A stretch of DNA of 64,000 nt, taken from contig CALFMN010000244.1 in assembly GCA_937879875.1 (NCBI GenBank), positions 46,433 to 110,432 on the forward strand, given 5' to 3'. Positions 8,229 to 62,483 of the stretch are shown in pieces (position 1 is the first letter of the stretch; each line of letters begins with the position of its first letter). Origin of the DNA: an uncultured Chloroflexota bacterium. GTDB lineage: Bacteria; Chloroflexota; Dehalococcoidia; CAUJGQ01. The notes beneath the pieces were generated by a model. The model did no database searches. It saw only the letters and a list, made by a program, of their open reading frames with translations, and was not told the DNA's origin. The position numbers were made by a program, and so were the translations under genes.

Positions 8229-8840
8229 ATGACGTACGTTCCCAATCCTGCCGTGATCGAGTCCGACGGGCGCATCGAGCGCTCGATGGATGTTTTCTCC
8301 CGGCTGCTGCGCGACCGCATTATCTACCTCGGCACGCCGATCGACGATTCGGTGGCGAATCTGATCATCGGCCAGTTGCTGTATCTGGCCAGCGCCGACC
8401 CCGACCGCGACATCCAGATGTACATCAACAGCCCCGGCGGCGTGGTCACCGCCGGCCTGGCCATCTACGACACGATGCAGCACATCCGCTGCGATGTGTC
8501 CACAACCTGCATCGGCCAGGCCGCCAGTATGGGCGCCGTGCTGCTGGCCGCCGGCGCCAAGGGCAAGCGCTACATCACGCCCAACGCGCAGGTAATGGTG
8601 CACCAGGGCAGCGCCGGTTTCAGCGGCGCCACGCCGGACATCATGATCCAGGTCCAGCACCTGGCCGGCCTGATCGAGCGGCTGAACAACATTCTCGCCA
8701 AACACACCGGCCAGCCGATGGAGCGCATCAAGACGGACACCTCCCGCGACTTCTGGATGAACGCCGACCAGGTGCTCGAGTACGGTATCTGCGATCAGGT
8801 GCTCTCGCCCGCAAAGGAGCTGGCCGCGGTCGGAGCATAG
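8229..8840 (+). CDS. clpP: ATP-dependent Clp protease proteolytic subunit
   Basis: The canonical ClpP sequence is present with catalytic Ser in GQAASMGA, His in MVHQ and Asp in RDFWM. A GAGGAG Shine-Dalgarno lies upstream. Confidence 0.95.
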   Translation: MTYVPNPAVIESDGRIERSMDVFSRLLRDRIIYLGTPIDDSVANLIIGQLLYLASADPDRDIQMYINSPGGVVTAGLAIYDTMQHIRCDVSTTCIGQAASMGAVLLAAGAKGKRYITPNAQVMVHQGSAGFSGATPDIMIQVQHLAGLIERLNNILAKHTGQPMERIKTDTSRDFWMNADQVLEYGICDQVLSPAKELAAVGA

Positions 8841-8866: not shown

Positions 8867-8899
8867 CGACGGGGGACGGGCGCGATGCCCGTCCCCCGT
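8867..8899. terminator. Perfect 13-bp GC-rich hairpin downstream of clpP (putative terminator)
   Basis: ACGGGGGACGGGC-gcgat-GCCCGTCCCCCGT lies 27 nt after the clpP stop. It has no clear U-tract. Confidence 0.4.
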
Positions 8900-8920
8900 C
8901 TGCATGGTCGGCGGCGCTCG

Positions 8921-9106
8921 GCCCTCTATCCCCCGTCCCCTTTCCCCCAATCGTTGCCATCGCGCGGAGCGCGATCTGGGATGAGGGAAGGGGCGATCGT
9001 GCGCAGCACGACTCGGACGGTCTCGGGTTAACCATTCATCGATCGGATCGCTTCAGGCTGGATCGCCCCTCGCCCAGGATTGGGAGAGGGGAAGGGGGTG
9101 AGGGCC
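8921..9106. repeat. Family-B MITE-like palindromic repeat, copy 1
   Basis: The left arm is GGCCCTCTATCCCCCGTCCCCTTTCCCCCAATC... and the right arm is GATCGCCCCTCGCCCAGGATTGGGAGAGGGGAAGGGGGTGAGGGCC. A central GGGTTAACC is present. The element is homologous to the copies at 41855-42040 and 44888-45060. Confidence 0.6.
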
Positions 9107-11449
9107 CGCCGCCCGCATCGCGTTCCAGACCCGCTGCGGTGTCAGCGGCAGATCGATGTGGCGCACACCCAGCGGCGCCAGCGCATCCATCACCGCGTTG
9201 GCGATCGCCGGCACGCTGCCGATCGTGCCCGCTTCGCCCACGCCCTTGACGCCGAGCGGCGTGCGCGGCGAGGGCGTGACCGTATGGCCGATCGACATGT
9301 GCGGCATATCTTCGCTGTGCGGAATCGCGTAGTCCATGAAGCTGCCGGAAATGAGCTGGCCGTTTTCGTCGTAGACCACCTCTTCCAGCAGCGCCTGGCC
9401 CACCCCCTGCGCGATGCCGCCGTGCACCTGCCCGCGCACGATCAGCGGGTTGATCACCGGACCGCAGTCGTCTACCCCGTCGAAACGCAGCAGCGACACC
9501 GCGCCGGTGTCGCGATCCACTTCGACCATCGCTAAGTACGCGCCGAAGGGGAAGGTCATGCCCTGCGAGCCGAAGAAGTGCTGCGCTTCGAGGCCGGGCT
9601 CGTCGCCGGGCGCGGGCGCGCTGTAGGCGTGCGCGGCCACGCGCTGAAAGGCGAGGCCGCGGTCGGGCGCGTCGGCCGGCTCGATGCGGCCGTTGCGGAA
9701 GACAAGATCGTCTTCGTTCGCCTCGATCATGTTGGCGGCGACGCGGCGCATTTTCGCCTCGATCTCGCGCAGCGACTGATAGACCGCCGAACCGCCCATC
9801 ATCATGCTGCGGCTGCCAAAAGTCCCGATGCCCTGCGGCACGATGGCGGTATCGTGCTCGTGCAGCGTCACCGTGTCGGGATCGACGCCCAGCACTTCGG
9901 CCGCGAGCTGCGCGAAGACCGTCTCGTGGCCCTGGCCGTGCGCCGAAACGCCGGTTAACAACTCGACCGCGCCGCTCTGGTTCACACGCACCGCGCCGTA
10001 CTCCCAGGCCGCCGCGCCGCCGCCTTCGCTGGCCGCGCCGGGGCCGCAGCTCTCGACGTACGAGCAGATGCCGATGCCGACCAGCCGCCCGGCGGCGCGG
10101 GCCGCATCGCGCTCGCGCTTGAGCGCGGCGTAATCCACGTTCTCCAGCAGGGTGCTCAGCGCCTTCTCGTAGTCGCCGCTGTCGTAGAGCAGGCCGGTGG
10201 CCGTGCGATACGGGAAGGCGTCGGCGGGAATGAAGTTCTTACGGCGCAGCTCGACCGGGTCCATCGCCAGCTCGCGCGCCAGCAGATCCATCGCCCGCTC
10301 GCAGAAGTAGGTCGCTTCTGGCCGGCCGGCGCCGCGGTAGGCTGCCGTGGGCGACTTGTTGGTCAGCGCCTCGCTGAGCAGCACGCGGGCAGCGGGAAAT
10401 TTGTAGACGTTGGTGCAGAGCCGCTGCGTGTTGCCGAACAGGCCGACCGTGCTGGCGTCGCAGGTATGGCCCAAATCGGCGATGATGCTGAGCTTGAGGC
10501 CGAGCAGCGTGCCGTCGCGCCTGGCCGCCAGCTCGATCGTGCCGCTCTGGCCACGGCCGTGGCTGGTGGTCGTGAACGACTCCATGCGCGTCTCGATCCA
10601 CTTGACCGGCCGCTCGAAGCGCCGCGCCAGGAACGCGGCGCAGGCTTCTTCGGAGTAGACATTGCCTTTGGCGCCGAAGCCGCCGCCCATCTCCGGCGCG
10701 ATCACACGCACGCGTCCTTCGGGAACGCCGGTCATGCGCGAGAGCGTGGCGCGCACGCGGTGCGGCGCCTGCGAAGTGACCCAGATCGTGAAACGATCGT
10801 CCCAGCGATCGTAGCGCGCCAGCACGCCGCGCGTTTCGATCGCGGAGGGCGCGAGGCGGGCGGCCGACATGCGCTGCTTCACGACGATATCCGCCTGCGC
10901 GAACGCCGCCTCGATCTCAGCTTCTGAGGCGCCGAACGGCACGCCCCGCAGCACGGCGTTGCCGGGAAAGTCGTCCCAGAGCTGCGGCGCGCCCGGCGCC
11001 AGCGCCGCCTCCGGATCGACCACGGCGGGCAACTCGTCATACTCGACCTCGACCAGGTCGACCGCGTCCTCCGCGACGTAACGGTCACTCGCCAGCACCG
11101 CGGCGACCGACTCGCCCACGCGCCGCACCTTCTCCCGCGCCAGCACGAAGCGGGGCGGCTGCGGCGGACCGGGATTCGCCGGGAACGGCGGCGCGAAGTC
11201 GGCGGCTTCGGCGCCCGTCACCACGGCGAAGACACCCGGCAAGGCGAGCGCCGCGCTCACGTCGATCGAAACGATGCGGGCGTGCGCGTGCGGGGAGCGT
11301 ACGAAAGCGAGGTGCAGCAGATCGGGCAGATGCATGTCGTCGATGTAGGTTGCACTGCCGGTAATCAGGCGCGGGTCTTCGCGCCGTTTCACCGGCGTTC
11401 CGAACCAACGCGCATGCAGAAATGGCCCGGTGCTGTGCTCGTCAGCCAC
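9053..11449 (-). CDS. Xanthine dehydrogenase/aldehyde oxidase/CoxL-family molybdopterin-binding large subunit
   Basis: An approximately 800-aa Mo-hydroxylase large-subunit-like sequence (FGTPVKRREDPRLITGSATYIDD..., GGGFG, MMGGS motifs). Start was set at GTG (VADEHS) with an AGGAAG Shine-Dalgarno. The last ~17 codons lie inside repeat copy B1. Confidence 0.8.
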   Translation of the reverse strand: MADEHSTGPFLHARWFGTPVKRREDPRLITGSATYIDDMHLPDLLHLAFVRSPHAHARIVSIDVSAALALPGVFAVVTGAEAADFAPPFPANPGPPQPPRFVLAREKVRRVGESVAAVLASDRYVAEDAVDLVEVEYDELPAVVDPEAALAPGAPQLWDDFPGNAVLRGVPFGASEAEIEAAFAQADIVVKQRMSAARLAPSAIETRGVLARYDRWDDRFTIWVTSQAPHRVRATLSRMTGVPEGRVRVIAPEMGGGFGAKGNVYSEEACAAFLARRFERPVKWIETRMESFTTTSHGRGQSGTIELAARRDGTLLGLKLSIIADLGHTCDASTVGLFGNTQRLCTNVYKFPAARVLLSEALTNKSPTAAYRGAGRPEATYFCERAMDLLARELAMDPVELRRKNFIPADAFPYRTATGLLYDSGDYEKALSTLLENVDYAALKRERDAARAAGRLVGIGICSYVESCGPGAASEGGGAAAWEYGAVRVNQSGAVELLTGVSAHGQGHETVFAQLAAEVLGVDPDTVTLHEHDTAIVPQGIGTFGSRSMMMGGSAVYQSLREIEAKMRRVAANMIEANEDDLVFRNGRIEPADAPDRGLAFQRVAAHAYSAPAPGDEPGLEAQHFFGSQGMTFPFGAYLAMVEVDRDTGAVSLLRFDGVDDCGPVINPLIVRGQVHGGIAQGVGQALLEEVVYDENGQLISGSFMDYAIPHSEDMPHMSIGHTVTPSPRTPLGVKGVGEAGTIGSVPAIANAVMDALAPLGVRHIDLPLTPQRVWNAMRAAGPHPLPLSQSWARGDPA

Positions 11450-11824
11450 GGTTGGCTTCCTCCCGCGGGTGGGTGTGGGGCGCTGCCCCGTGCAACTGTA
11501 CACTGACCAGCAACGATGCGCCGACTGAACACCTAACCCCATCGCGGCTTGCGCCGCGCCTGCCGATCACCGTCTTTCCAGGCCACAAGCCCGAACTCGC
11601 CGCGGACGTCTTACCTGGCTCTGGCATCACGGCGTCCTGCCGCGGCGTAGTGGACTGCGCTGCGCGGCTGCGCCGATCGGGCGGCTATCCATAGCGCCAG
11701 CCGCGCGCCGGCGGCGCTCGCGCATTGTGCGGGCCGCGACGCGTCTGCTAGCATATTGCCGTAGAAAAAGAGCGTGAAAAACGAGCCCGACCGCGAGAGC
11801 GGGCACCAGAGAGAAGAAAGGCGC

Positions 11825-12344: not shown

Positions 12345-14630
12345 ATGCCAGACTACGTCGAAACCCAGATCAACGGCCGCCCGCTCCTGATCGAGACGGG
12401 CACGCTCGCCCAACAGGCCGGCGGCTCCGTCAGCGTGCGCTACGGCGACACCGTGGTGCTCGTCACCGCTACCGCCAGCCCGCAGCCGCGCCCGCTCGAC
12501 TTCTTCCCCCTGACCGTGGACTACGAAGAGCGGCTCTATGCCGCCGGCAAGATTCCCGGCAGTTTCTTCCGCCGCGAAGGCCGCCCCGGCACCGAGGCGA
12601 TCCTCGCCGCCCGCCTGACGGACCGGCCGATTCGCCCGCTCTTTCCCAACGGCTTCCGCAACGACGTGCAGGTAATCATCACCGTGCTCTCGGCCGATCA
12701 GGAGAACGACCCGGACGTGCTCGGCACGATCGGCGCCTCCGCCGCGCTGATGATCTCCAACATCCCCTTCGACGGCCCGATCAGCAGCGTGCGCGTCGGC
12801 CGCGTGGACGGCAGGTTCGTCGCCCTGCCCACGTACAGCGAGCTGCAAAAGAGCGATCTCGACCTCGTGGTGGCGGGCACGCGCGACGCGATCATGATGG
12901 TCGAGTGCGGCTCACAAGAAGTCTCAGAGGACGACATGGTGGCGGCGATCCGCTTCGGCGACGAGGTCAACAAGCAGATCATCGCCGTGCAGGAAGAGCT
13001 GATCGCCCGCAACGGCAAGCCGAAGATGGAGGTCGCGGTCAAGCAGGTTGACCCAGAGGTCGCCGGCGCCGTACGCGCCTACCTCGCGGACAAGATCGGC
13101 CCGGCGCTGGGCGGCGCGTCCAAAGAGGCGCAGCGCGAGGCCGAGGACCGCGCCCGCGACGATGTGCTGGAGCATTTCGCCGAGCAGTACGACAAGGACG
13201 CCGTGCTCTCCGTCTTCGAGTCGATGCTCAAAGACGGTGTGCGCAACGCGATCATCGACGAGGCGCGCCGCCCCGATGGCCGCGCCCTCACCGAGATTCG
13301 CCCGCTGAGCTGCGCCGTGGGCATCCTGCCGCGTACGCACGGCACCGGCCTCTTCCAGCGCGGCGAGACGCAGATCCTGACGATCGCCACGCTCGGTGGC
13401 GTGGGCGAGGTGCAGAAGATCGACAGCCTCTCGCAGGAAGAGACCAAGCGCTACATGCACCACTACAACTTTCCGCCGTTCTCCGTGGGTGAGGTGCGGC
13501 GCGTGGGCTCGCCCGGCCGGCGCGAGATCGGCCACGGCGCCCTGGCCGAGCGGGCGCTGCTGCCGGTGATTCCGCCGGTGGAAGAGTTCCCCTACACGTT
13601 GCGGCTCGTCTCCGAGACGCTCGGCTCGAACGGCAGCAGCTCGATGGGCAGCGTCTGCGGCAGCACGCTGGCGCTGATGGACGCGGGCGTGCCGCTGCGC
13701 AAGCCGGTGGCCGGCGTGGCGATGGGCCTGGTGATGCGCGATGACGGCAAGTACACCGTGCTCACCGATATCGCCGGCATCGAAGACCATCTGGGCGACA
13801 TGGACTTCAAAGTCGCCGGCACCAAAGACGGCATCACCGCGCTGCAAATGGACATCAAGGTCAAGGGCATTACGCCGGAGATCATGGAGAAAGCGCTGGC
13901 GCAGGCCAAAGACGGCCGCATGTTCATCATGAACGCGATGTTAGAAACGATTCCCGAGCCGCGCGCCGAGATGTCGCCCTACGCGCCGCGCATGTACACG
14001 ATCCGCATCAACCCGGAGAAGATCGGCGCGGTGATCGGCCCCGGCGGCAAGACGATCCGCTCGATTATCGAAGCGACCAAGGCCACGATCGACATCGAGG
14101 ACGACGGCAAGGTCTTCATCGGCTCGGCCAACGAGGAGGGCGCCCGCAAGGCGATCCAGATGGTCGAGGGGCTGACCAAAGAGGTCGAGGTCGGCCAGGT
14201 CTACACGGGCAAGGTCACGCGCATCATGCCCTTCGGCGCCTTCGTGGAGATTCTGCCGAACAAGGACGGCCTGGTCCACATCTCCGAGTTGGCCGACCAC
14301 CGCGTGGAGCGCGTCGAAGACGAGGTCAACATCGGCGACGAAGTGACCGTCGTGGTCAGCGAGATCGACCACATGGGCCGCATCAACCTCTCGCGCCGTG
14401 CCTTATTGGACGGCAGCCGCAACGGCGCCGGCGAGGGCGAAGGCGAAGATATGGAGGGCCGGCGCGGCGGCTCGCTGATGGGCGGGCGCGGCAGGCCGGG
14501 CGGCGGCCGTCCCGGCGGCTTCGGCGGTCGCGGCCCCGGTGGACCCGGCGGCGGCCCGCCGCGGCGCGGCCCGGGTGGTCCCGGCGGCGGCTTCGGCGGC
14601 CCCGGCAATGGCGGCCCGCGCCGCCGCTAA
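12345..14630 (+). CDS. pnp: Polyribonucleotide nucleotidyltransferase (PNPase) with C-terminal Gly/Arg/Pro-rich tail
   Basis: Two RNase PH domains, a KH domain and an S1 domain are present. It is in conserved synteny after rpsO. The last ~75 aa are low-complexity ([25 protein letters not shown]...). Confidence 0.95.
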
Positions 14631-14688: not shown

Positions 14689-14740
14689 GATCTGCTTGCC
14701 CTGCATTGCTACAATCAAGAGACAGCGCGGCGGTGAAACG

Positions 14741-15049
14741 ATGACCACGAGCACACCGATCGATATCGGTACGCTGATCTACTCGCGCCCCGATCTGCAT
14801 TCCGGCAAGCCCTGCCTCACCGGCACGGGCATGACGGTGCATGCCGTCGCCGGAATGTATCTGGCCGGAATGAGCGCCGAGCAAATCCAGTCCGAGTTTC
14901 CCGATCTGGACCTCACCCTCTTCTATGCGGCGATCACCTACTACCTCGCGAATCGGACCCGGATCGACACCGAGCTGGCAGAGGAACAGGCGCTCGCCGA
15001 GGAACTCGCGGCCCGCTACCCGCAAGGGTGGCGCCGCGAGAATATGTAG
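14741..15049 (+). CDS. DUF433-domain protein (putative antitoxin), copy 1
   Basis: MTTSTPIDIGTLIYSRPDLHSGKPCLTGTGMTVHAVAGMY... is a typical DUF433 sequence. It is immediately followed by a DUF5615 gene. Confidence 0.75.
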   Translation: MTTSTPIDIGTLIYSRPDLHSGKPCLTGTGMTVHAVAGMYLAGMSAEQIQSEFPDLDLTLFYAAITYYLANRTRIDTELAEEQALAEELAARYPQGWRRENM

Positions 15050-15055
15050 CGCCGG

Positions 15056-15412
15056 GTGTTTTCGCTGTATCTGGACGAAGACAGCATGGGCCGCGGTCTG
15101 CTTACTGGCCTGCGTCGGCGCGGCGTCGACGTGGTCACGGTGCAGGAGGAACGCAGACGCGGCCAGCCGGACATCGCCCAGCTTGAGTGGGCGACGCGGC
15201 ACGGTCGTGTGCTGTACACCAAGAACGCCGGGGACTTCCAGCGCCTCCACACCGAGATCCTTCTCAGCGAGCGACATCATGCGGGTATCATCGTCTTGAC
15301 CGGGCGCAGCATTTCCGTGGGCCATCAGCTACGTGGCTTGTTCACGATCTTGGACGGACGCACGGCTGAAGAGATGATCGATGCCCTCGAATACCTCAGT
15401 AATTGGCGGTGA
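15056..15412 (+). CDS. DUF5615-family PIN-like protein (putative toxin)
   Basis: VFSLYLDEDSMGRGLLTGLRRRGVDVVTVQE...GRVLYTKNAGDF matches the DUF5615 pattern. It has a GTG start 6 nt after the DUF433 stop. Confidence 0.7.
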   Translation: MFSLYLDEDSMGRGLLTGLRRRGVDVVTVQEERRRGQPDIAQLEWATRHGRVLYTKNAGDFQRLHTEILLSERHHAGIIVLTGRSISVGHQLRGLFTILDGRTAEEMIDALEYLSNWR

Positions 15413-15416
15413 AGCG

Positions 15417-15731
15417 ATGACCACGAGCACACCGGTCGATATCGGCACGCTGATCTACTCCCGCCCGGACCTGCACTCGGGCAAGCCCTGTCTTGCCGGC
15501 ACGGGCATGACCGTGCACGCCGTCGCCGCACGCTACAACCGCGGCATGAGCGCCGAGCAGATTCAGGACTCGATTCCCGACCTCGACCTGAGTTTGTTCT
15601 ACGCGGCGATCACCTACTACCTCGCCAACCGCGCCCGCATCGACGCCGACTTCGCAGCCGACGCGGCTCTGTACGACGAACTCGCGGCCCGTTACCCCAA
15701 CGGTTGGCGCCGCGAGAACATGCGCCCCTGA
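15417..15731 (+). CDS. DUF433-domain protein, copy 2 (recent paralog of 14741..15049)
   Basis: About 85% identical to copy 1 (MTTSTPVDIGTLIYSRPDLHSGKPCLAGTGMTVHAVAARY...). It starts 4 nt after the DUF5615 stop. Confidence 0.75.
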   Translation: MTTSTPVDIGTLIYSRPDLHSGKPCLAGTGMTVHAVAARYNRGMSAEQIQDSIPDLDLSLFYAAITYYLANRARIDADFAADAALYDELAARYPNGWRRENMRP

Positions 15732-37973: not shown

Positions 37974-38003
37974 GGCCACCGTCCGTCCACACGCGGCGCG
38001 CCT

Positions 38004-38095
38004 AACCCTGACTTCCCTGGCGGGAAGTCTGTCCCTGGGAAGGGACAGATATCGCTTCAGCGATGTCAGGGTTAGGTGCCCCGCGCTCGGCAATG
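38004..38095. repeat. Family-A MITE-like repeat, short (internally deleted) copy
   Basis: The termini GCGCCTAACCCTGAC ... GTCAGGGTTAGGTGCCCC are present. Internal hairpins (TCTGTCCCTGGGAAGGGACAGA; ATCGCTTCAGCGAT) correspond to the fused left and right ends of the long copies. Confidence 0.65.
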
Positions 38096-40728: not shown

Positions 40729-41156
40729 TGAGCAAGCAACGCCGGCGCAGGCGCGCACAAGAACGCGCGAGCCACGAGCAGTTCGATCCCGAGCTGGCCG
40801 AGCGAGCGTGGGACGGGCGAAAACAGCATCACGCGGACGGCCGTGCCGAGCGTGACCGCCGGCGCGGCCGCCCTGCGGATTCCGCGGTTGTGCACGGGGA
40901 CAGTGTTGCTGTGCCTATCCCTGCTCAGCGGCGGCGCGCCCGCGATGACGACGACTCGCTGACATCCCACGCCGAACGCGCCTGGGACGCCCTGCTGGCC
41001 CCGGCGGGCGCTGCGTTGACCTGTGGCGGCTGCTGCAACTGGCGACCGCACAGCGAGCCGGGCGGCCGCGGCACCTGCGATCACCCGGCGAGCGGCTTCT
41101 CTTACCCATACGAAGACACGGCGGCCTGTCCGTTCTTTGAAGCGCGCCGCCGCTAA
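40728..41156 (+). CDS. Hypothetical protein with basic low-complexity N-terminus and Cys-rich C-terminus (possible YkgJ/UPF0153-like Cys cluster)
   Basis: Its ATG overlaps the upstream stop (ATGA). The C-terminus reads LTCGGCCNWRPHSEPGGRGTCDHP...ACPFFE. The N-terminal 90 aa are R/D-rich and could be a translation artefact of high GC. Confidence 0.35.
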   Translation: MSKQRRRRRAQERASHEQFDPELAERAWDGRKQHHADGRAERDRRRGRPADSAVVHGDSVAVPIPAQRRRARDDDDSLTSHAERAWDALLAPAGAALTCGGCCNWRPHSEPGGRGTCDHPASGFSYPYEDTAACPFFEARRR

Positions 41157-41827
41157 GCCAGGGTCAGCGTCAGAAACTCGTGCAGATCCGAGAGGTCAGG
41201 CAAGACGGCGTCTGCGCCCGCAACAGCCAGCGCCTCCGCCGAGCAGTGCCCTGTTGCGACGCCGATCACGGGGATACCGTTCGCCCTGGCCGCGCTGACG
41301 TCGTGCTCGCTGTCGCCGACAATCCAGATACGGTCGCCGGCGGCGCGGCCGAGCCGGCCAGCCGCCTCGGCGATGACCTCCGCCCGATCCTCGGAGTCGT
41401 CGGCGAAGCCACCGTCGAGAAAGTAGTCCCAGATGCCGACGTGGCGCAGCTTGATCTCGGCCGCGCTGCGGTAATTGCCCGTGCCCAGACCCAGCCGCAC
41501 GTCCGAGCGCTCCGCGAGCGCATCGAGCAGCGCGGGCACGCCGGGCAGCACGTCGCAGGCCGGTCCGTTCGACAGCTCTTCTTTCAGCAGATCAAAGTAC
41601 ATGTCGCGGAAACGCTGAAACTCAGGCGCCAGGTCGCCGTCGTGCAACGCTTGCCGCACGTAGCAGTCGCGCAGGATGGCGCCGTCGGTGCGGCCAGCGA
41701 ACTCGATGCCGGCAAAGGCGTCGTCCACGCCGTAAAGCTCGCGAAATGTGCGCGTCATCGCCCGCGACCCGGCGCCGTTCGTACGGATCAGGGTCATGTC
41801 GATGTCGAAGAGGAAGATCGTTGTCAT
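41153..41827 (-). CDS. HAD-family hydrolase (phosphoglycolate phosphatase-like)
   Basis: HAD motifs are present: motif I FLFDIDMTLI, motif II GLGTGN, motif IV IWIVGDSEHD. Confidence 0.8.
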   Translation of the reverse strand: MTTIFLFDIDMTLIRTNGAGSRAMTRTFRELYGVDDAFAGIEFAGRTDGAILRDCYVRQALHDGDLAPEFQRFRDMYFDLLKEELSNGPACDVLPGVPALLDALAERSDVRLGLGTGNYRSAAEIKLRHVGIWDYFLDGGFADDSEDRAEVIAEAAGRLGRAAGDRIWIVGDSEHDVSAARANGIPVIGVATGHCSAEALAVAGADAVLPDLSDLHEFLTLTLA

Positions 41828-41854: not shown

Positions 41855-42040
41855 GGCCCTCTTCCTCTCTTGTGCGTTGGAAGTCTCCGATGGTTGCGCT
41901 GCGCTCTGGCTCCCACTCCTGGGAGAAGGAGACGATCCAGCGCCGAGCGTGCCGAGCGCTATACGGTTAGCCCGACACCCTCTCGATCTGGCGATCAACG
42001 ATCGCCCCTCGCCCAGGATTGGGAGAGGGGTCGGGGGTGA
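41855..42040. repeat. Family-B MITE-like palindromic repeat, copy 2
   Basis: The left arm is GGCCCTCTTCCTCTC...CTCCCACTCCTGGGAGAAGGAGAC and the right arm is GATCGCCCCTCGCCCAGGATTGGGAGAGGGGTCGGGGGTGAGGGCC. It lies between the HAD start codon and the rhodanese stop. Confidence 0.6.
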
Positions 42041-42051
42041 GGGCCGAAATG

Positions 42052-42381
42052 CTAGCCCATCGGCAGGCCGGCGTCGCGCCAGGTATCGGTGCCGCCCTCG
42101 ACGTTGAAGAGCCGGGTCTTGCCGCCGGCGGCGGCGTACTCGCAGGCGAGGGCGCTGCGTTGCCCCATCTTGCAGATGAACAGCACGTCTCTGTCGTCCG
42201 GCAGTTCGTCGCGGCGGTTGTAGACGCTGTTCAGCGGGATCAGCGTCGTGCCGGCAGCGTGATAGTCGGCGAACTCGCCCGGCTCGCGCACGTCGATGAA
42301 GGCGGCGTCGCCTTTGTCCAACATCTCCTTCGCCTCTTGCACCGAGACGCGGGTAAACGGTTCCTGCGGATTCTTGACCGC
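42052..42381 (-). CDS. Single-domain rhodanese (sulfurtransferase)
   Basis: The active-site loop FICKMGQRS is present within DVREPGEFADYHAAG...LFICKMGQRS. Start is probably GTG (VAVKNPQ). Confidence 0.7.
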   Translation of the reverse strand, partial: AVKNPQEPFTRVSVQEAKEMLDKGDAAFIDVREPGEFADYHAAGTTLIPLNSVYNRRDELPDDRDVLFICKMGQRSALACEYAAAGGKTRLFNVEGGTDTWRDAGLPMG

Positions 42382-42541
42382 CACGGCGGACCTCCTGGGT
42401 GAGCTGGATGATTGTTGACTCAGCAACTCAATTATAGCAGCAGCCGGCGGCAGGATCACGCCGGACCTGCACTATCCTGACGCGCAGCCGGGCCGGTGAA
42501 AAGCACCGACCCGGCCTGGCATCCTGTGCTGCCCCTGCCGC

Positions 42542-44618: not shown

Positions 44619-44879
44619 ATGCGCGCCGTATTCGTCATGGTGAAGGTTGAGCCGGGGCAGGTCGAGTCGGTCGCGCAGCACATCGGCGATCTCGAGGCGT
44701 TCTCCGAAGGATATTCGATCTCCGGCGCCTACGACCTGCTGATGAAGTTCTACATCGAGGACATCGACCACCTGGGCCGGCTGGTGAACCACGAGATTCA
44801 GACGATTCCCCACGTGCGCGAGACGTTCACGCTGCTGACGTTCAACGCATTTCCCGCGCCCGGCGACGCTCGGCAGTGA
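44619..44879 (+). CDS. Stand-alone Lrp/AsnC C-terminal (RAM) ligand-binding domain protein
   Basis: MRAVFVMVKVEPGQVESVAQHIGDLEAFSEGYSISGAYDLLMKFYIEDIDHLGRLVNHEIQTIPHVRETFTLL is a typical AsnC_trans_reg domain. It has no DNA-binding HTH. Confidence 0.8.
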   Translation: MRAVFVMVKVEPGQVESVAQHIGDLEAFSEGYSISGAYDLLMKFYIEDIDHLGRLVNHEIQTIPHVRETFTLLTFNAFPAPGDARQ

Positions 44880-44887
44880 TAGCGCGG

Positions 44888-45060
44888 CGTTCGGCCCTCA
44901 CCACCGTCCCCTCGCCCAATCCTGGGCGAGGGGCGATCCCGGGTTGGAGCGATCCGTAGCGGCGTCGGGTTAACCGTTTTGTCAGTCGGACCGCTCACTG
45001 GTGGATCGTCTCCTTCTCCCAGGATTGGGAGAAGGAGACAGGAGAGGTTGAGGGCCGAAA
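44888..45060. repeat. Family-B MITE-like palindromic repeat, copy 3 (full length, clean TIRs)
   Basis: The left terminal repeat is GGCCCTCACCACCGTCCCCTCGCCCAATCCTGGGCGAGGGGCGATC. The right terminal repeat is GATCGTCTCCTTCTCCCAGGATTGGGAGAAGGAGAC...TTGAGGGCC. A central GGGTTAACC is present. The element fills almost the whole gap between two convergent stop codons. Confidence 0.65.
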
Positions 45061-45068
45061 GCCGCGCC

Positions 45069-46628
45069 TCAGGCTGAGCCGTTGCGCATACGCCGGAACC
45101 AGCCGCGCGGGGGCTGCGAGCGTTGCCGCGGCGTCGCAAGCGACTCATGCTCACATGATTGCAGCTCGAGCTCGCGCAGATACGCGTCGATCGCGGCAGC
45201 GGCGCGGCGACCAGCGGCCATCGCCGTCACGACCAGGCCCTCGCCGTGCACCACGTCCCCGCCGGCAAAGACACCGCGCCGGCCCGTGTGGCCGTCTGAA
45301 CTCTCGGTTCTGAGAAAACCCTTGCCGTTGACGCCGAGGCCTTCCGTCGCCTCGCGCAGCAGCGGGTCGGGCTCGTAGCCGATCGCGATCACGGCAAGCC
45401 GCGCCGGGATCTCGTAGTCGGAGCCCAGCACGGCGAAGGCGCGCCGGCGACCGCCGGCGTCTGACTCGCCGCGCTCCAGGCGACGCAGGCGCACGCCGGT
45501 CAGGTGGCCTGCCGCGTCGCCGGTAAAGGCCACCGGCTCCGTCTCGAAGCGAAAGACCACACCTTCTGCGCGTGCGTCCGTTTCCTCTTCCGCGCGCGCG
45601 GCCAGCTCTTCGCGCGTGCCGCTGCAGGCCAGCGTGACAGATGACGCGCCCATGCGCAGCGCCGTGCGTACGCTGTCCAGTGCGGCGTCGGTGCCGCCGA
45701 TCACGACGACGGCCGGCGCCTCTTCACGCCGCGCCAGCGCCGTCGCGGCCGAGCCGGCGCCGCCCGCCGCCAGCAGCTTGCCCGCGGCGGCGTTCGCCCG
45801 CAACAGAAACTCCGTGGCCGTCGAGACGCCCTCATACTCCGAGGCGCCGGGGATGCGCAGCTCTCGGTCCACGCCGGCGCCGGTGGCCAGGTAGACGGCG
45901 TCGAAGCCTTCCACCAGCAGCTCATCCACGCTGACATCGCGCCCGACGCGCACGCCGCTGACGAAGTCGGCGCCGAGCATGGTGAGAAAGCGCAGCTTCT
46001 CGTTGAGAATGCGTTTCGCCAGCTTGAAATTGGGAATGCCGTGCGCCAGCGCGCCGCCGGGCGTCGGCCACTGGTCGAAGACGCTGACCTCGTGCCCGCG
46101 TTTGACCAGTTCCTCGGCGACTGTCAGGCCGGACGGCCCCGAGCCAACCACGGCCACCCGCCGGCCGCTCGGCTCCGGCAGATCGGCCGGCAGCGGGAAG
46201 CCACCGAGCTGTGTCCGCTGCGTGTCGGCGACAAACGCTTCGAGCACGCCGATGCCGACGGGTGGCTCTTTGCGCCCATCCGGCCGAATCGCGAAGCCCA
46301 CCGGGCACTCGCCCTCGCACAGCCGCTCGTGCGGGCAGAGCCGCCCGCACATCTCCGGCAGATTGGAGGTTTCGCGAAACTTGTTGGCAGCGCCGATCGC
46401 GTCGCCATTTTCGAGCAGCAGCAGCGCCGACGGGATGTCGTTGTGTGCGGGGCAGGCATCAACGCAGGGCGTGGTCGGGCAGTGGATACAGCGGGCTGCT
46501 TCCAGCCGCGCCCGGTTCAGGTCGAGCCCCTGGTAGACCTCTTCCCAGTTGTTGACGCGCTCTTCGGGAGATTGCTTGTCGCCCGGCTGCGCCGAGATGC
46601 TCAGCCGCGCCCAGATGCGATTTGCCAT
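45069..46628 (-). CDS. Glutamate synthase small-subunit-like NAD(P)H-dependent FAD oxidoreductase (GltD/PreT family)
   Basis: The N-terminal Fe-S Cys cluster region is present (CIHCPTTPCVDACP...CGRLCPHERLCEGEC). Two dinucleotide-binding motifs are present (VAVVGSGPSGL; VVVIGGTDAALD). Start was set at MANRIW. Confidence 0.8.
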   Translation of the reverse strand: MANRIWARLSISAQPGDKQSPEERVNNWEEVYQGLDLNRARLEAARCIHCPTTPCVDACPAHNDIPSALLLLENGDAIGAANKFRETSNLPEMCGRLCPHERLCEGECPVGFAIRPDGRKEPPVGIGVLEAFVADTQRTQLGGFPLPADLPEPSGRRVAVVGSGPSGLTVAEELVKRGHEVSVFDQWPTPGGALAHGIPNFKLAKRILNEKLRFLTMLGADFVSGVRVGRDVSVDELLVEGFDAVYLATGAGVDRELRIPGASEYEGVSTATEFLLRANAAAGKLLAAGGAGSAATALARREEAPAVVVIGGTDAALDSVRTALRMGASSVTLACSGTREELAARAEEETDARAEGVVFRFETEPVAFTGDAAGHLTGVRLRRLERGESDAGGRRRAFAVLGSDYEIPARLAVIAIGYEPDPLLREATEGLGVNGKGFLRTESSDGHTGRRGVFAGGDVVHGEGLVVTAMAAGRRAAAAIDAYLRELELQSCEHESLATPRQRSQPPRGWFRRMRNGSA

Positions 46629-46811
46629 GCCGCTCCCCGGCGGCGGTGCCGCCCCGCCCCGCACGTCCATTCTCTCCGGAAATCGGCGCCGCGCGCCAGC
46701 GCCCAGACGAACGAAACCGGCCCAGATTGTGACCTGTCACACAATCGAAAGCGGGGCGGGCTGTTCGCCCACCCCGCCGAGGGACTCGAATCACCTCGAA
46801 TGCAACGGAAA

Positions 46812-49141: not shown

Positions 49142-49272
49142 GGCTTGCCTCCCGCCTTTTCCTGCGAGTTTTTACCACTGGTATAATACGGTCATACGCC
49201 CAGAAGCCGCCGCCTGTCAAGTATGCAGAAAAGAGCGCAGCGCCTTCTCAGATGCCGCCATGGCCGCCCCAC

Positions 49273-49502
49273 GCGGGGCACCTAACCCTGCTTTGCCTGG
49301 CGGCAAAGCTGTCCCTTCCCGAAGCGGGAAGGGACTTTTGGAGCGTTCCCAGCGCCATGAGACGGCGGCGGGGCTGGGGTGTCCTTGTGGGACAGGCGCC
49401 AGGCTCGTCTCCCAGCCGCCCCGTCGTTCCTCGACCCTCACCCTTCCTGTGTCGGGAAGGGACAGATTTCGCTGAAGCGAAATCAGGGTTAGGTGCCCCG
49501 CG
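49273..49502. repeat. Family-A MITE-like repeat, long copy
   Basis: The termini GCGGGGCACCTAACCCTG ... CAGGGTTAGGTGCCCCGCG are present. Internal conserved blocks include GGACTTTTGGAGCGTTCCCAGCGCC, GACGGCGGCGGGGCTGGGGTGTCC and CCCTTCCTGTGTCGGGAAGGGACAG. It lies in the divergent region between the diiron paralog 2 and tetR. Confidence 0.7.
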
Positions 49503-49600
49503 CCGCCAGGGCGCGCCGCATACCACACGGTCGGCGACACACGCGGCGAACGCGACGTTCGCGCGGCAGCACAGGGCGGTGCTAGCATGCAGGTCAGGCG

Positions 49601-53479: not shown

Positions 53480-53707
53480 CGCGGGCACCTAACCCTGACC
53501 TCGCAGGCGAGGTCTGTCCCTTCCCGAAACTGGAAGGGACTTCTGGAGCGTTCCCGGCGCCGTGCGACGGCGGCGGGGCTGCGGTGTCCCTGCGAGACAC
53601 GCGGATGGATTGCCTTCCACCCAGCCGATTGTCCTCGAACCAAACCCTTCCTGTGTCGGGAAGGGACAGCTTTGCCGCCAGGCAAAGCAGGGTTAGGTGC
53701 CCTGCGC
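53480..53707. repeat. Family-A MITE-like repeat, long copy
   Basis: The termini GCGGGCACCTAACCCTGA ... CAGGGTTAGGTGCCCTGCG are present. The internal blocks match those of the other long copies. Confidence 0.7.
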
Positions 53708-53755
53708 GGCCGGTGCCCTCCGCACAGCCTATGGAAGTCGCGGTCGAGTCCGCCT

Positions 53756-57883: not shown

Positions 57884-58113
57884 GGCGGGGCACCTAACCC
57901 TGACCTCGCAGGCGAGGTCTGTCCCTTCCCGAGGCGGGAAAGGGACTTCCAGAGCGTTCCCGGCGGCGCCGGACGGCGGCGGGGCTGGGGTGTCCTTGCG
58001 GGTCGTGCGGAGGGAACGGTTCCTGCCTTTCCGGTGATCCTCGAACCTTACCCTTCCAGTTTCGGGAAGGGACAGACTTCGCTTCAGCGAAGTCAGGGTT
58101 AGGTGCCCCGCGC
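57884..58113. repeat. Family-A MITE-like repeat, long copy
   Basis: The termini GGCGGGGCACCTAACCCTGA ... TCAGGGTTAGGTGCCCCGCGCGG are present. The internal blocks are the same as in the copies at 49273 and 53480. Confidence 0.7.
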
Positions 58114-58138
58114 GGCCGCCTCAGCCGCGAACCCCGCC

Positions 58139-62427: not shown

Positions 62428-62483
62428 CGCCCTACGCCCTACGCCCTACGCCCTACGCCCTACGCCCTACGCCCTACGCCCTA
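62428..62483. repeat. Heptanucleotide tandem repeat (CGCCCTA)x8, preceded by (CGTCGGAT)x2
   Basis: Read directly from the sequence: cgcccta x8, perfect. It lies about 20 nt upstream of the annotated DUF2723 start and downstream of the apt stop. Confidence 0.85.

What the first reader, a model, noticed from the sequence alone, without database searches (positions are those of the whole stretch)
44888..45060. Family-B palindromic repeat (~185 bp) with long TIRs around the core CCCCTCGCCCAGGATTGGGAGAGGGG
Three copies lie at 8921-9106, 41855-42040 and 44888-45060. Each consists of two inverted ~45-bp arms. Each arm itself contains a near-perfect palindrome (for example CCCCTCGCCCAATCCTGGGCGAGGGG) flanked by GGCCCTCACC / GGTGAGGGCC. 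The central segment often contains GGGTTAACC. Copy 3 fills almost exactly the gap between two convergent stop codons. Copy 2 sits 28 nt upstream of a HAD hydrolase start codon. Family B is unrelated in sequence to family A, so this region carries two independent MITE-like families.
Basis: seen in the sequence. Interest (0 to 1): 0.6.

Follow-up and report, generated by a model that had tools for sequence, protein, structure and literature searches.

The report
Paired DNA-triplex-motif repeat element
The three ~165-190-bp repeats are real; each is an inverted pair of the known bacterial "BoxC/PIT" triplex-forming motif around a conserved core, and their three stem segments co-vary in a way that suggests the folded single-stranded DNA shape is itself preserved.

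Summary
Three copies lie at 8920-9106, 41855-42045 and 44893-45056, far beyond chance. Each arm is a pyrimidine stem, a loop (AGGATT), a purine stem, a 3-4-nt loop, and a third G-rich segment that is the mirror image of the purine stem. This is the BoxC/PIT/"TM" intrastrand triplex motif of E. coli; all 27 stem bases equal E. coli TM no. 10. About 47-55 further full-length elements in metagenomes share a 185-nt consensus. Across 105 arms, at least 10 purine-stem patterns are each matched by their own third segment (102/105). Every one of 41 elements pairs two different arm types. Orthologous copies in an ~85%-identical relative changed all three segments together. Copy 3 is absent from four relatives; copies 1 and 2 are ancient, and copy 1 rewrote a gene's C-terminus. 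I found no target-site duplication, no transposase, no U-tract and no Rfam match. Best reading: a REPIN-like doublet of triplex motifs that is copied without duplications and selected at the single-stranded DNA level. It is not a classical MITE or an intrinsic terminator. It is a new variant of a known kind.

The parts
8920..9106 (.). Family B copy 1 (187 nt), between the convergent ClpP and XDH-like genes
   Evidence: An orthologous copy is present in the relative, L186 6354-6557.
8920..8993 (-). Copy 1 left arm, read on the - strand: CCCCTTCCCTCATCCC, then a loop with a ~29-nt palindromic insertion, then GGGGGAAAGGGG-ACG-GGGGATAGAGGG-CC
   Evidence: The same arm type occurs in metagenome copies. 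One non-standard triad at position 4.
8994..9065 (.). Copy 1 centre: CGATCG ... GGGTTAACC (9025-9033) ... GGATCG
9066..9106 (+). Copy 1 right arm (triplex motif): Y 9066-9075 CCCCTCGCCC, loop 9076-9081 AGGATT, R 9082-9091 GGGAGAGGGG, loop 9092-9094 AAG, third strand 9095-9104 GGGGTGAGGG, then CC
   Evidence: Positions 9053-9106 also encode the tail ...GPHPLPLSQSWARGDPA* of the XDH-like ORF.
41855..42045 (.). Family B copy 2 (191 nt), between the rhodanese stop and the HAD start (same strand)
   Evidence: The orthologous copy is in L096 at about 14427-14590.
41855..41932 (-). Copy 2 left arm, read on the - strand: TCTCCTTCTCCC-AGGAGT-GGGAG, a ~31-nt insertion, then CAA-GAGAGGAAGAGGG-CC
   Evidence: The same insertion recurs in L100, L111, L115 and L133.
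41933..42004 (.). Copy 2 centre: CGATCC ... GGTTAGCCC (41965-41973) ... GATCG
42005..42045 (+). Copy 2 right arm: Y 42005-42014 CCCCTCGCCC, loop 42015-42020, R 42021-42030 GGGAGAGGGG, loop TCG, third strand 42034-42043 GGGGTGAGGG, then CC
44893..45056 (.). Family B copy 3 (164 nt; with the outer imperfect inverted repeat, 44882-45068), filling the AsnC/GltD convergent gap
   Evidence: The site is empty in relatives L096, L188, L097 and L189.
44893..44933 (-). Copy 3 left arm, read on the - strand: CCCCTCGCCC-AGGATT-GGGCGAGGGG-AC-GGTGGTGAGGG-CC
44934..45008 (.). Copy 3 centre: CGATCC ... GGGTTAACC (44967-44975) ... GGATCG
45009..45056 (+). Copy 3 right arm (variant type): Y 45009-45020 TCTCCTTCTCCC, loop 45021-45026 AGGATT, R 45027-45038 GGGAGAAGGAGA, loop 45039-45042, third strand 45043-45054 AGAGGTTGAGGG, then CC. 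All 12 triads are allowed.
9053..11542 (-). XDH/CO-dehydrogenase-type molybdopterin subunit. Its last ~17 codons are element-derived.
8229..8840 (+). ClpP, convergent with the XDH-like gene. It is followed by its own hairpin at 8871-8899.
41153..41827 (-). HAD hydrolase; its start codon is 27-28 nt from copy 2
42052..42459 (-). Rhodanese-domain gene; its stop codon is 6 nt from copy 2
44619..44879 (+). AsnC/Lrp ligand-binding-domain ORF
45069..46670 (-). GltD-like FAD/NAD oxidoreductase

Best explanation
Family B is a non-autonomous, REPIN/BIME-like repeat built from two inverted copies of the BoxC/PIT/TM intrastrand triplex motif. The copies flank a ~72-75-nt loosely palindromic core (CGATC...GTCGGGTTAACCG...TCGGAACGCT...GATCG).

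Shown: each arm has a pyrimidine stem (Y), a purine stem (R) that pairs with it, and a third G-rich segment (T). T is the antiparallel mirror of R under the purine-motif rules G*G:C, A*A:T and T*A:T. The three segments co-vary across subfamilies and between orthologous copies. The two arms of an element always differ in type. Elements sit in intergenic DNA, mostly at gene 3' ends. They differ in presence between close relatives and lack target-site duplications.

Inferred: the unit under selection is the fold that one arm adopts as single-stranded DNA, a hairpin with the third strand folded back into its major groove. That fold would be read when the DNA is transiently single-stranded, during replication, repair or an ssDNA copy step. 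An unidentified trans-acting activity would copy the element to new sites without duplicating the target, as HUH/Y1 enzymes do for REPINs. Keeping the two arms different would stop the ~170-bp unit from becoming a perfect long palindrome, so that each arm folds locally.

Effects on neighbouring genes look incidental: an altered C-terminus at copy 1 and read-through at copy 2.
For: Identity with the known motif:
- The Y, R and T stems equal E. coli TMECO no. 10 at 27/27 positions, including the conserved G-opposite-A hairpin mismatch.
- The generic triplex scan finds arms in the window against 0 in 30 shuffles.

Three-way covariation:
- 105 arms fall into at least 10 R patterns, each matched by its own T pattern.
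- 12/25 distinct combinations are perfect, against 31/574 non-cognate and 0/25 in parallel orientation.
- 102/105 arms have at most 1 bad triad.
- Within one element, an arm's own T gives 0.38 bad triads against 3.67 for the partner arm's T; the own T is better in 79/82 arms.
- 41/41 elements carry two different arm types, as in the E. coli inverted pairs.

In-situ co-evolution in orthologous copies:
- Copy 1 has R GGGAGAGGGG / T GGGGTGAGGG, where L186 has R GGGAGAAGGGG / T GGGGATGAGGG.
- Its other arm has R GGGGGAAAGGGG / T GGGGATAGAGGG, where L186 has R GGGAGAGAGGGG / T GGGGAGTGAGGG.
- The copy 2 ortholog behaves likewise.
- The elements are 65-70% identical between the relatives, while flanking genes are ~85%.

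Copying:
- Copy 3 is absent from four related loci, yet is 89.7% identical to an element at an unrelated locus.
- A shared ~31-nt insertion occurs in dispersed copies.

Other points:
- No target-site duplication.
- Arm hairpins are 96% paired with compensatory changes, while the centre helix is 69% paired.
- The single-stranded DNA fold of copy 3 has z = -11.
- PMC4666352 shows that the E. coli motif forms a stable triplex as ssDNA in vitro.
Against: - Triplex formation was not seen in duplex DNA or by in vivo DMS footprinting in E. coli (PMC4666352).
- No mobilising enzyme is known or was found here.
- Copies are related by descent, so the number of independent covariation events is smaller than the number of arms.
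- Gene conversion between copies could replace an arm as a block and mimic coordinated change at an orthologous site.
- One common arm type (R GGGGGAAGGG, 10 copies) and the GGGCGAGGGG type keep a non-standard triad at position 4.
- The 'gain' of copy 3 could instead be repeated loss.
- The rest of the source genome was not available.
Confidence: 0.6

Rival explanations
1. Classical MITE: a deletion derivative of an insertion sequence, moved in trans by a DDE transposase that recognises the terminal inverted repeats.
For: It has terminal inverted repeats, a small size and no coding capacity. It is multicopy, and copy 3 differs in presence between relatives.
Against: No target-site duplication appears at any of 169 boundary offsets or 5 lengths; the best result is 7/45 elements for 3-mers, against ~3 expected. 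No transposase recurs near more than 170 loci; the recurrent neighbours are ABC-transporter, SDR, CoA-transferase and similar families. The two 'TIRs' of one element are always different types, which a dimeric transposase binding identical ends would not favour. The same arm motif occurs with unrelated centres in other lineages.
Confidence: 0.1
2. RNA-level element: a bidirectional transcription terminator or a 3'-end mRNA stabiliser, as proposed for REP sequences.
For: The GC-rich hairpins are very stable. Elements lie mostly downstream of genes: 12 convergent, 21 tandem and only 4 divergent contexts out of 37. The palindromic design would work in both directions.
Against: There is no U-tract and no terminator-consensus hit in any copy. 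PIT motifs had no terminator or promoter activity in E. coli (PMC4666352). The HAD gene starts 27-28 nt (window) or 13 nt (L096) after copy 2, so it needs read-through. ClpP next to copy 1 has its own hairpin plus T7 terminator in L186. Mirror-image covariation of the third segment has no role in an RNA hairpin, and purine-motif triplexes are reported not to form in RNA (PMC4666352 introduction).
Confidence: 0.12
3. G-quadruplex element: the G-rich R and T segments (GGG-AGA-GGGG-NNN-GGGG-TGA-GGG) fold into an intramolecular G4, and that is what is conserved.
For: 71/105 arms contain four runs of at least 3 G. The E. coli authors noted the same possibility.
Against: 34/105 arms cannot form a canonical G4, including all 19 of the common GGGAGAAGGAGA type, yet they keep a perfect mirror third strand. 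A G4 would not require the pyrimidine stem or position-by-position A/T matching. NMR excluded a G4 for the E. coli motif.
Confidence: 0.05
4. Purely selfish or neutral repeat, with the mirror symmetry an inherited accident. All arm types would descend from a few founders that happened to be mirror-symmetric, later diversified by block duplication and gene conversion without any structural selection.
For: Copies are related by descent. Block replacement by conversion could produce coordinated differences at orthologous sites. No in vivo triplex has been demonstrated.
Against: At least 10 different A/G patterns and lengths (10 to 16 triads) all keep the rule. The third strand uses A or T interchangeably opposite A (GGATGAG, GGTTGAG, GGAAGAG), as triad chemistry allows but simple copying would not give. 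No replication-based mutational process creates mirror (non-complementary) repeats. The same stems occur from E. coli to Chloroflexota.
Confidence: 0.13

Closest known systems
BoxC / PIT / TM(ECO) intrastrand triplex motif of E. coli and other bacteria (Bachellier et al. 1990s; Hoyne et al. 2000; Holder et al. 2015, PMC4666352)
   Same: The arm has the same Y-loop-R-loop-T architecture. All three 9-nt stems are identical to TMECO no. 10, including the G-opposite-A mismatch at the first A. It is intergenic and shows no transposase association. Inverted pairs always combine two different types.
   Different: Stems are 10-16 triads long instead of 9, so the published regex with a 3-nt second loop is not matched literally. 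Pairs enclose a conserved ~72-75-nt palindromic core, where E. coli pairs have a 16-30-nt spacer. There are many stem subtypes. The host is a high-GC Chloroflexota lineage, whereas TMECO was reported only in Proteobacteria.
REPINs / BIMEs (inverted REP doublets mobilised by RAYT Y1/HUH transposases; PMC3333891, PMC2817692)
   Same: It is an inverted doublet of a short hairpin-forming unit. It is intergenic and multicopy, lacks target-site duplications, and the relevant structure is plausibly read on single-stranded DNA.
   Different: There is no consistent GTAG or CGTC tag next to the hairpin. The unit carries a third, mirror-repeat strand. No RAYT gene was found, and the whole genome was not available.
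MITEs
   Same: Small size, inverted termini, non-coding, dispersed, and variable in presence between relatives.
   Different: No target-site duplication, no parent IS, and the two termini of one element are of different types.
Paired TM elements of Thermomicrobiales MAG SMAG_U524 (loci L037, L050, L076)
   Same: The same arm motif with the same AGGATT loop, in an inverted pair ~90-130 nt apart.
   Different: The centre is unrelated (no CGATC...GGTTAACC...GATCG). The two arms share the same stems and differ in the second loop.

Membership tests
[quoted passage not shown] | Three consecutive blocks: a pyrimidine stem, a complementary purine stem, and a third strand antiparallel to the purine stem forming G*G:C, A*A:T or T*A:T triads. 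Stems are 6-15 nt, loops 1-6 nt, and at most 1 mismatch is allowed (ITxF definition). | tested here: met
   The window arms at 9066-9104 and 42005-42043 pass a strict scan, against 0 hits in 30 shuffles. The arm at 45009-45054 has 12/12 allowed triads. 102/105 family arms have at most 1 bad triad. Copy 1's left arm (~29-nt loop) and copy 2's left arm (~31-nt stem insertion) exceed the loop limits.
TMECO sensu stricto (E. coli regex CCCTCNCCC N3-6 GGGNGAGGG N3 GGGNGAGGG) | A literal match to the published pattern. | tested here: not met
   In the 9-nt register the second loop is 5 nt, not 3. The pattern matches only when N{3,5} is allowed: 2 matches, 0 in shuffles. Equivalently, the stems are 10 nt with a 3-nt loop. 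Other arms use different stems.
TMECO sensu stricto | Stem sequences of the E. coli motif. | tested here: met
   Y CCCTCGCCC, R GGGAGAGGG and T GGGTGAGGG equal TMECO no. 10 of Table 1 at 27/27 positions.
BoxC/PIT/TM kind | Inverted pairs combine two different motif types. | tested here: met
   41/41 elements with both arms parsed carry different R patterns. E. coli shows 5/5.
BoxC/PIT/TM kind | Forms a stable triplex as single-stranded DNA in vitro. | not testable with these tools
   Only nearest-neighbour Watson-Crick folding is available. Triplex energy cannot be computed.
MITE | Target-site duplication flanking the element. | tested here: not met
   The best case is 7/45 elements for a 3-mer, against ~2.6-3.5 expected.
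MITE | An autonomous parent IS with matching termini, or a transposase nearby. | tested here: inconclusive
   None was seen in the window, in 93 genome loci or in 80 metagenome loci. No complete genome of a carrier was searched.
MITE | Terminal inverted repeats, small size, non-coding. | tested here: met
REP/REPIN | A conserved GTAG or CGTC tetranucleotide at the foot of the palindrome. | tested here: not met
   The foot is GGATCG in the consensus. CGTC arises only in arm types whose stem begins with TC.
REP/REPIN | An associated RAYT (Y1/HUH) gene flanked by the repeats. | not testable with these tools
   The source genome beyond 64 kb is not available. None appeared among the recurrent neighbours.
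Intrinsic (Rho-independent) terminator | A GC-rich hairpin followed by a U-tract. | tested here: not met
   No terminator-like site lies within any copy. The hairpins are followed by G-rich sequence.
Any Rfam RNA family | A covariance-model match at the gathering threshold. | tested here: not met
   0 matches in the whole window.

The most novel reading that the evidence does not exclude
The intrastrand DNA triplex is a biologically read structure. An as yet unidentified enzyme, or a replication-coupled process, would recognise the hairpin-plus-third-strand fold on single-stranded DNA and copy these doublets to new sites. This would make BoxC/PIT-type elements a phylum-spanning class of mobile DNA whose recognition signal is a triple helix. 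The covariation seen here would then be the first comparative evidence that a DNA triplex is under selection in vivo.
Probability: 0.2. Interest if true: 0.85.

Novelty: new variant of a known kind. Interest (0 to 1): 0.55.

Why it matters
BoxC/PIT motifs have been known since the 1990s, and they fold into triplexes in the test tube. No function, no in vivo structure and no means of spread has been established for them.

This family offers many natural stem variants, heterotypic arm pairs, and orthologous copies in related genomes. The third strand tracks the purine stem position by position across them. That is the kind of evidence used to validate RNA structures, applied here to a DNA triple helix. 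It turns the question of whether the triplex matters in cells into a testable one, through triple compensatory mutants and tree-aware covariation.

It also has a practical use for annotators. The 'PSP...GEG'-type C-terminal tails and the small spurious ORFs seen in high-GC genomes can be explained as translations of this repeat.

Tried and rejected
- **Rfam:** the gathering-threshold scan of the window found nothing, and no tRNAs were found.
- **Plasmid collection:** blastn gave only two 40-nt arm-like hits, in Stanieria and Cupriavidus. These were the lead to the motif's breadth.
- **Viral contigs:** 7 matches, all chance matches in coding-like sequence without the stem or third strand. The element is not phage-borne.
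- **Transposase search:** all-vs-all clustering of ORFs near hits, plus Pfam scans of the recurrent clusters, gave housekeeping families only.
- **Target-site duplication:** the scan over boundary offsets found none.
- **Flank complementarity beyond TTC|GGCCC:** present in a minority of copies (for example L106 at 15/18 and L126 at 14/18), but on average barely above non-cognate pairs. I treated it as a weakly conserved outer part of the inverted repeat.
- **RNAalifold on 30 elements:** it predicted one long inter-arm hairpin with no compensatory pairs, which was uninformative. A cruciform structure taken from copy 3 showed that the arm hairpins, not the centre, carry the pairing signal.
- **Insertion point of copy 3:** I tried to define it exactly from the empty sites in L096 and L188. 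The intergenic spacers are too diverged to align.
- **Exact-protein look-up:** the first look-up with the ORF as called failed, because the start codon was over-extended.

Full report
**1. Observation**

The three copies exist where stated. By the conserved termini GGCCC...GGGCC they are:
- copy 1 at 8920-9106;
- copy 2 at 41855-42045;
- copy 3 at 44893-45056. An imperfect outer inverted repeat extends copy 3 to 44882-45068.

The core 18-mer CCCAGGATTGGGMGARGG occurs four times in the window and never in 100 dinucleotide-preserving shuffles. The best-conserved arms are 89-96% identical between copies. The window has 64-71% G+C and holds no tRNA and no Rfam match.

- Copy 3 fills the gap between the stops of an AsnC-domain ORF (44619-44879, +) and a GltD-like oxidoreductase (45069-46670, -).
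- Copy 2 lies between the stop of a rhodanese gene (42052-42459, -) and the start of a HAD hydrolase (41153-41827, -), 27-28 nt from the ATG.
- Copy 1 lies between the convergent ClpP (8229-8840, +) and an XDH/CO-dehydrogenase-type molybdopterin subunit (9053-11542, -).

**2. What the arms are**

A blastn search of plasmids returned 40-nt matches to one arm in a cyanobacterium and in a Cupriavidus.

These came from Cyanobacteria, Chloroflexota, Gemmatimonadota, Armatimonadota and other phyla. My own estimate is that about 70 chance hits are expected for this 18-mer in 596 Gb. Even so, 77 of 99 matches also have the complementary 5' stem. Of these, 59 have a GGGGTGAGGG-like segment just downstream.

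A literature search on the sequence itself led to Holder et al. 2015 (PMC4666352). The unit is the E. coli BoxC repeat, later named PIT and then TM/TMECO. [quoted passage not shown] As single-stranded DNA it folds into a purine-motif triple helix in vitro.

The window arms read CCCCTCGCCC-AGGATT-GGGAGAGGGG-AAG (or TCG)-GGGGTGAGGG-CC. In the 9-nt register, all 27 stem bases equal TMECO no. 10 of that paper, CCCTCGCCC / GGGAGAGGG / GGGTGAGGG. This includes the G-opposite-A mismatch that marks the E. coli 'mm' types. The published regex is not matched literally, because the stems here are 10 nt. In the 9-nt register the second loop is therefore 5 nt.

**3. The family**

A metagenome scan for two loops in inverted orientation 85-115 nt apart gave 80 stretches. 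About 47-55 of them are full family B elements. They share a 185-nt consensus:
- the arms are more than 90% conserved;
- the centre has conserved islands, CGATC at both arm junctions, GTCGGGTTAACCG in the middle, and TCGGAACGCT.

The source is a JGI metagenome contig of 126,677 bp. The nearest named relatives are 'Dehalococcoidia bacterium' MAGs, with a GltD-like protein at 88% and an XDH-like protein at 92% identity. The relative GCA_035310145.1 is syntenic and ~85% identical in coding DNA.

In Thermomicrobiales MAG SMAG_U524 the same arms are paired around an unrelated centre. The arm is therefore the conserved module.

**4. Three-way covariation**

I parsed 160 arms; 105 have a clear hairpin and third segment. 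They fall into at least 10 purine-stem patterns. Each pattern is accompanied by a third segment that, read backwards, has G opposite G and A or T opposite A. Third strands below are written reversed:

| Purine stem (R) | Third strand, reversed |
|---|---|
| GGGAGAGGGG | GGGAGTGGGG |
| GGGAGAAGGGG | GGGAGTAGGGG or GGGAGTTGGGG |
| GGGAGAAAGGGG | GGGAGATAGGGG, GGGAGTAAGGGG or GGGAGTTAGGGG |
| GGGAGAAGGAGA | GGGAGTAGGAGA or GGGAGTTGGAGA |
| GGGAGGAGGGG | GGGAGGAGGGG |
| GGGAGAGAGAGG | GGGAGTGAGAGG |
| GGGAGAAGGAGAGGGG | GGGAGTAGGAGTGGGG |

The supporting counts are:
- Twelve of 25 distinct combinations are perfect, against 31 of 574 non-cognate pairings and 0 of 25 in the parallel orientation.
- 102 of 105 arms have at most one disallowed triad.
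- All 41 elements with both arms parsed carry two different arm types. An arm's own third strand gives 0.38 bad triads, against 3.67 for the partner arm's. The own strand is better in 79 of 82 arms. This control is internal to each element.
- Only 71 of 105 arms could form a canonical G-quadruplex. The common GGGAGAAGGAGA type cannot, yet it keeps a perfect third strand.

A mirror repeat is not produced by any template-switch or replication error. It is also not what a dimeric DNA-binding protein reads.

**5. Orthologous copies**

Copies 1 and 2 are present at the same sites in the relative (L186 6354-6557 and L096 ~14427-14590). They are only 65-70% identical to the window copies, less than the flanking genes. 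Yet each orthologous arm is again self-consistent while differing in type:
- The XDH-side arm is Y CCCCTCGCCC / R GGGAGAGGGG / T GGGGTGAGGG in the window. In L186 it is Y CCCCTTCGCC / R GGGAGAAGGGG / T GGGGATGAGGG.
- The ClpP-side arm is R GGGGGAAAGGGG / T GGGGATAGAGGG in the window. In L186 it is R GGGAGAGAGGGG / T GGGGAGTGAGGG.

So all three segments changed together at one locus. The cause could be compensatory substitution or replacement of the whole arm from another copy.

**6. Gain, loss and side effects**

The copy 3 site is empty in two 88%-identity relatives: a 17-nt spacer in L096 and a 36-nt spacer in L188. It is also empty in L097 and L189. Copy 3 is nevertheless 89.7% identical to an element at an unrelated locus, L135. 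The simplest reading is a lineage-specific insertion.

A ~31-nt insertion in the purine stem of copy 2's left arm recurs in dispersed copies (L100, L111, L115, L133). This indicates that variants are copied as units.

Copy 1 overlaps the XDH-like gene. Its tail ...AAGPHPLPLSQSWARGDPA* is encoded by the arm, and the relative has a different element-encoded tail...GGPHPPSPSPMPAA*. More distant orthologues stop 2-9 residues after the conserved VW-A motif.

**7. Mechanism tests**

- *Target-site duplication.* None appears at any boundary offset. The best result is 7 of 45 elements for 3-mers, with about 3 expected.
- *Flanks.* Complementarity beyond TTC|GGCCC is only slightly above non-cognate pairs.
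- *Transposase.* None recurs near the elements. The recurrent neighbours are ABC-transporter parts, SDRs, CoA-transferases and the like. The E. coli study reported the same absence.
- *Phage.* Viral contigs carry only chance matches.
- *Promoters and terminators.* No promoter-like or terminator-like consensus lies in any copy. PIT motifs showed neither activity in E. coli. HAD begins 13-28 nt after copy 2, so it must be read through the element. ClpP in the relative has its own hairpin plus T7 terminator between the gene and the element.
- *Gene context.* The 37 metagenome elements give 21 tandem, 12 convergent and 4 divergent contexts. Divergent promoter regions are mildly depleted (p = 0.03).
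- *Folding.* As single-stranded DNA, copy 3 folds at -69.5 kcal/mol (z = -11) into an outer stem, two arm hairpins and a central stem. On 30 aligned elements the arm hairpins are 96% paired with compensatory changes, and the central helix is 69% paired.

**8. Interpretation**

Family B is an inverted doublet of BoxC/PIT/TM triplex motifs around a lineage-specific conserved core.

What is shown:
- the identity of the arms;
- the three-way covariation;
- the heterotypic pairing of the arms;
- the age of copies 1 and 2, and the restricted presence of copy 3;
- the absence of target-site duplications, of transposases and of terminator features.

What is inferred:
- The hairpin-plus-third-strand fold of single-stranded DNA is what is maintained.
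- Spread uses a mechanism that does not duplicate the target, in the manner of REPINs and their HUH enzymes.
- Keeping the two arms different avoids a perfect long palindrome.

It is not a classical MITE and not an intrinsic terminator.

Caveats:
- No triplex has been seen in vivo.
- The copies are not independent samples.
- Gene conversion could mimic compensatory change.
- The enzyme, if any, is unknown.

**9. Novelty and score**

The motif is known and widespread. TMECO has been found in 262 proteobacterial genomes, and G/C-rich TMs occur in cyanobacteria and Thermus.

Three things appear new, as far as the searched literature shows:
- the composite ~165-190-bp family with a conserved core in Chloroflexota;
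- the rich set of stem subtypes;
- the covariation evidence, including coordinated change at orthologous loci.

I rate it a new variant of a known kind, with interest 0.55.

Noticed in passing
window 37992-38085, 49269-49507, 53480-53712, 57885-58118: The arms of family A also have a pyrimidine/purine hairpin (GTCCCTTCCC / GGGAAGGGAC). It is followed by a second small hairpin with compensatory changes between copies (ATATCGC/GCGATGT, CTTTGCC/GGCAAAG and others), and then by CAGGGTTAGG. Read backwards, that last segment matches the purine stem at 9 of 10 positions. Family A may therefore be a triplex-motif doublet with a hairpin in its second loop. It co-occurs with family B on the same metagenome contigs (L104, L109, L115, L120, L135, L166).
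   Followed up: partly
L124, L127-L131, L137-L139, L163, L165 (metagenome loci): A different element shares the 12-mers CCCAATCCTGGG ... CCCAGGATTGGG. It has 30-45-nt G/C-rich inverted termini (for example GGCCCCCCTGCCCCCCAATCCTGGGGG) and 85-115-nt centres that are unrelated between copies. It occurs in both low-GC and high-GC contexts. It was not identified.
   Followed up: no
window 9053-9106; P0121 C-terminus: The XDH/CO-dehydrogenase-type subunit ends in a tail translated from the repeat arm: GPHPLPLSQSWARGDPA here and GGPHPPSPSPMPAA in the 92% relative. Proline/serine/glycine-rich tails of this sort in high-GC proteomes may often be repeat-derived.
   Followed up: yes
window 8871-8899; L186 6577-6613: A perfect hairpin (GGGGGACGGGC-GCGAT-GCCCGTCCCCC) follows the ClpP stop codon. 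In the relative, the homologous hairpin carries a T7 tract on the ClpP strand, so this lineage does use canonical intrinsic terminators. In the window the T-tract is missing.
   Followed up: partly
window 42015-42020 / 41913-41918 compared with L096 14560-14565: The hairpin loop is flipped between orthologous arms: AGGAGT (AGGATT-type) in the window and AATCCT in L096. This suggests loop inversion within the palindrome.
   Followed up: no
L006, L017, L019, L026, L035, L046, L056, L061, L070, L074, L080, L082, L085 (Longimicrobiaceae / Gemmatimonadota): A variant of the motif has a second loop of ~20 nt (TGGCGAGCCTCAAGCGAGCCG, a direct repeat of GCGAGCC) between GGGAGAGGG and GGGTGAGGGCC. It is present in many copies per genome.
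   Followed up: no
L009, L021, L023, L075, L079, L090 (Petrachloros mirabilis ULC683): In this cyanobacterium the motif is embedded in a longer repeat that is near-identical between copies: AGAGCAGAAATTCAACGTTTTAG-[motif]-AGACGAGAGCTGTCGAACTCACGT. It may be the end of a larger repeated element.
   Followed up: no
L001 401-440 (Stanieria cyanosphaera plasmid NC_019750.1, 23300-23339): A complete motif lies inside an annotated 'hypothetical protein' CDS (WP_015195731.1) in an AT-rich context. Either the motif is tolerated in coding sequence or the CDS is miscalled.
   Followed up: no
window 62428-62483: A perfect tandem array of the heptamer CGCCCTA, at least 8 units long.
   Followed up: no
window 14513-14627 and 14729-15722: There are 36-nt-period G/C-rich direct repeats, and two ~180-nt direct repeats 676 nt apart at 77-90% identity. 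This is probably a repetitive, glycine/proline-rich coding region.
   Followed up: no
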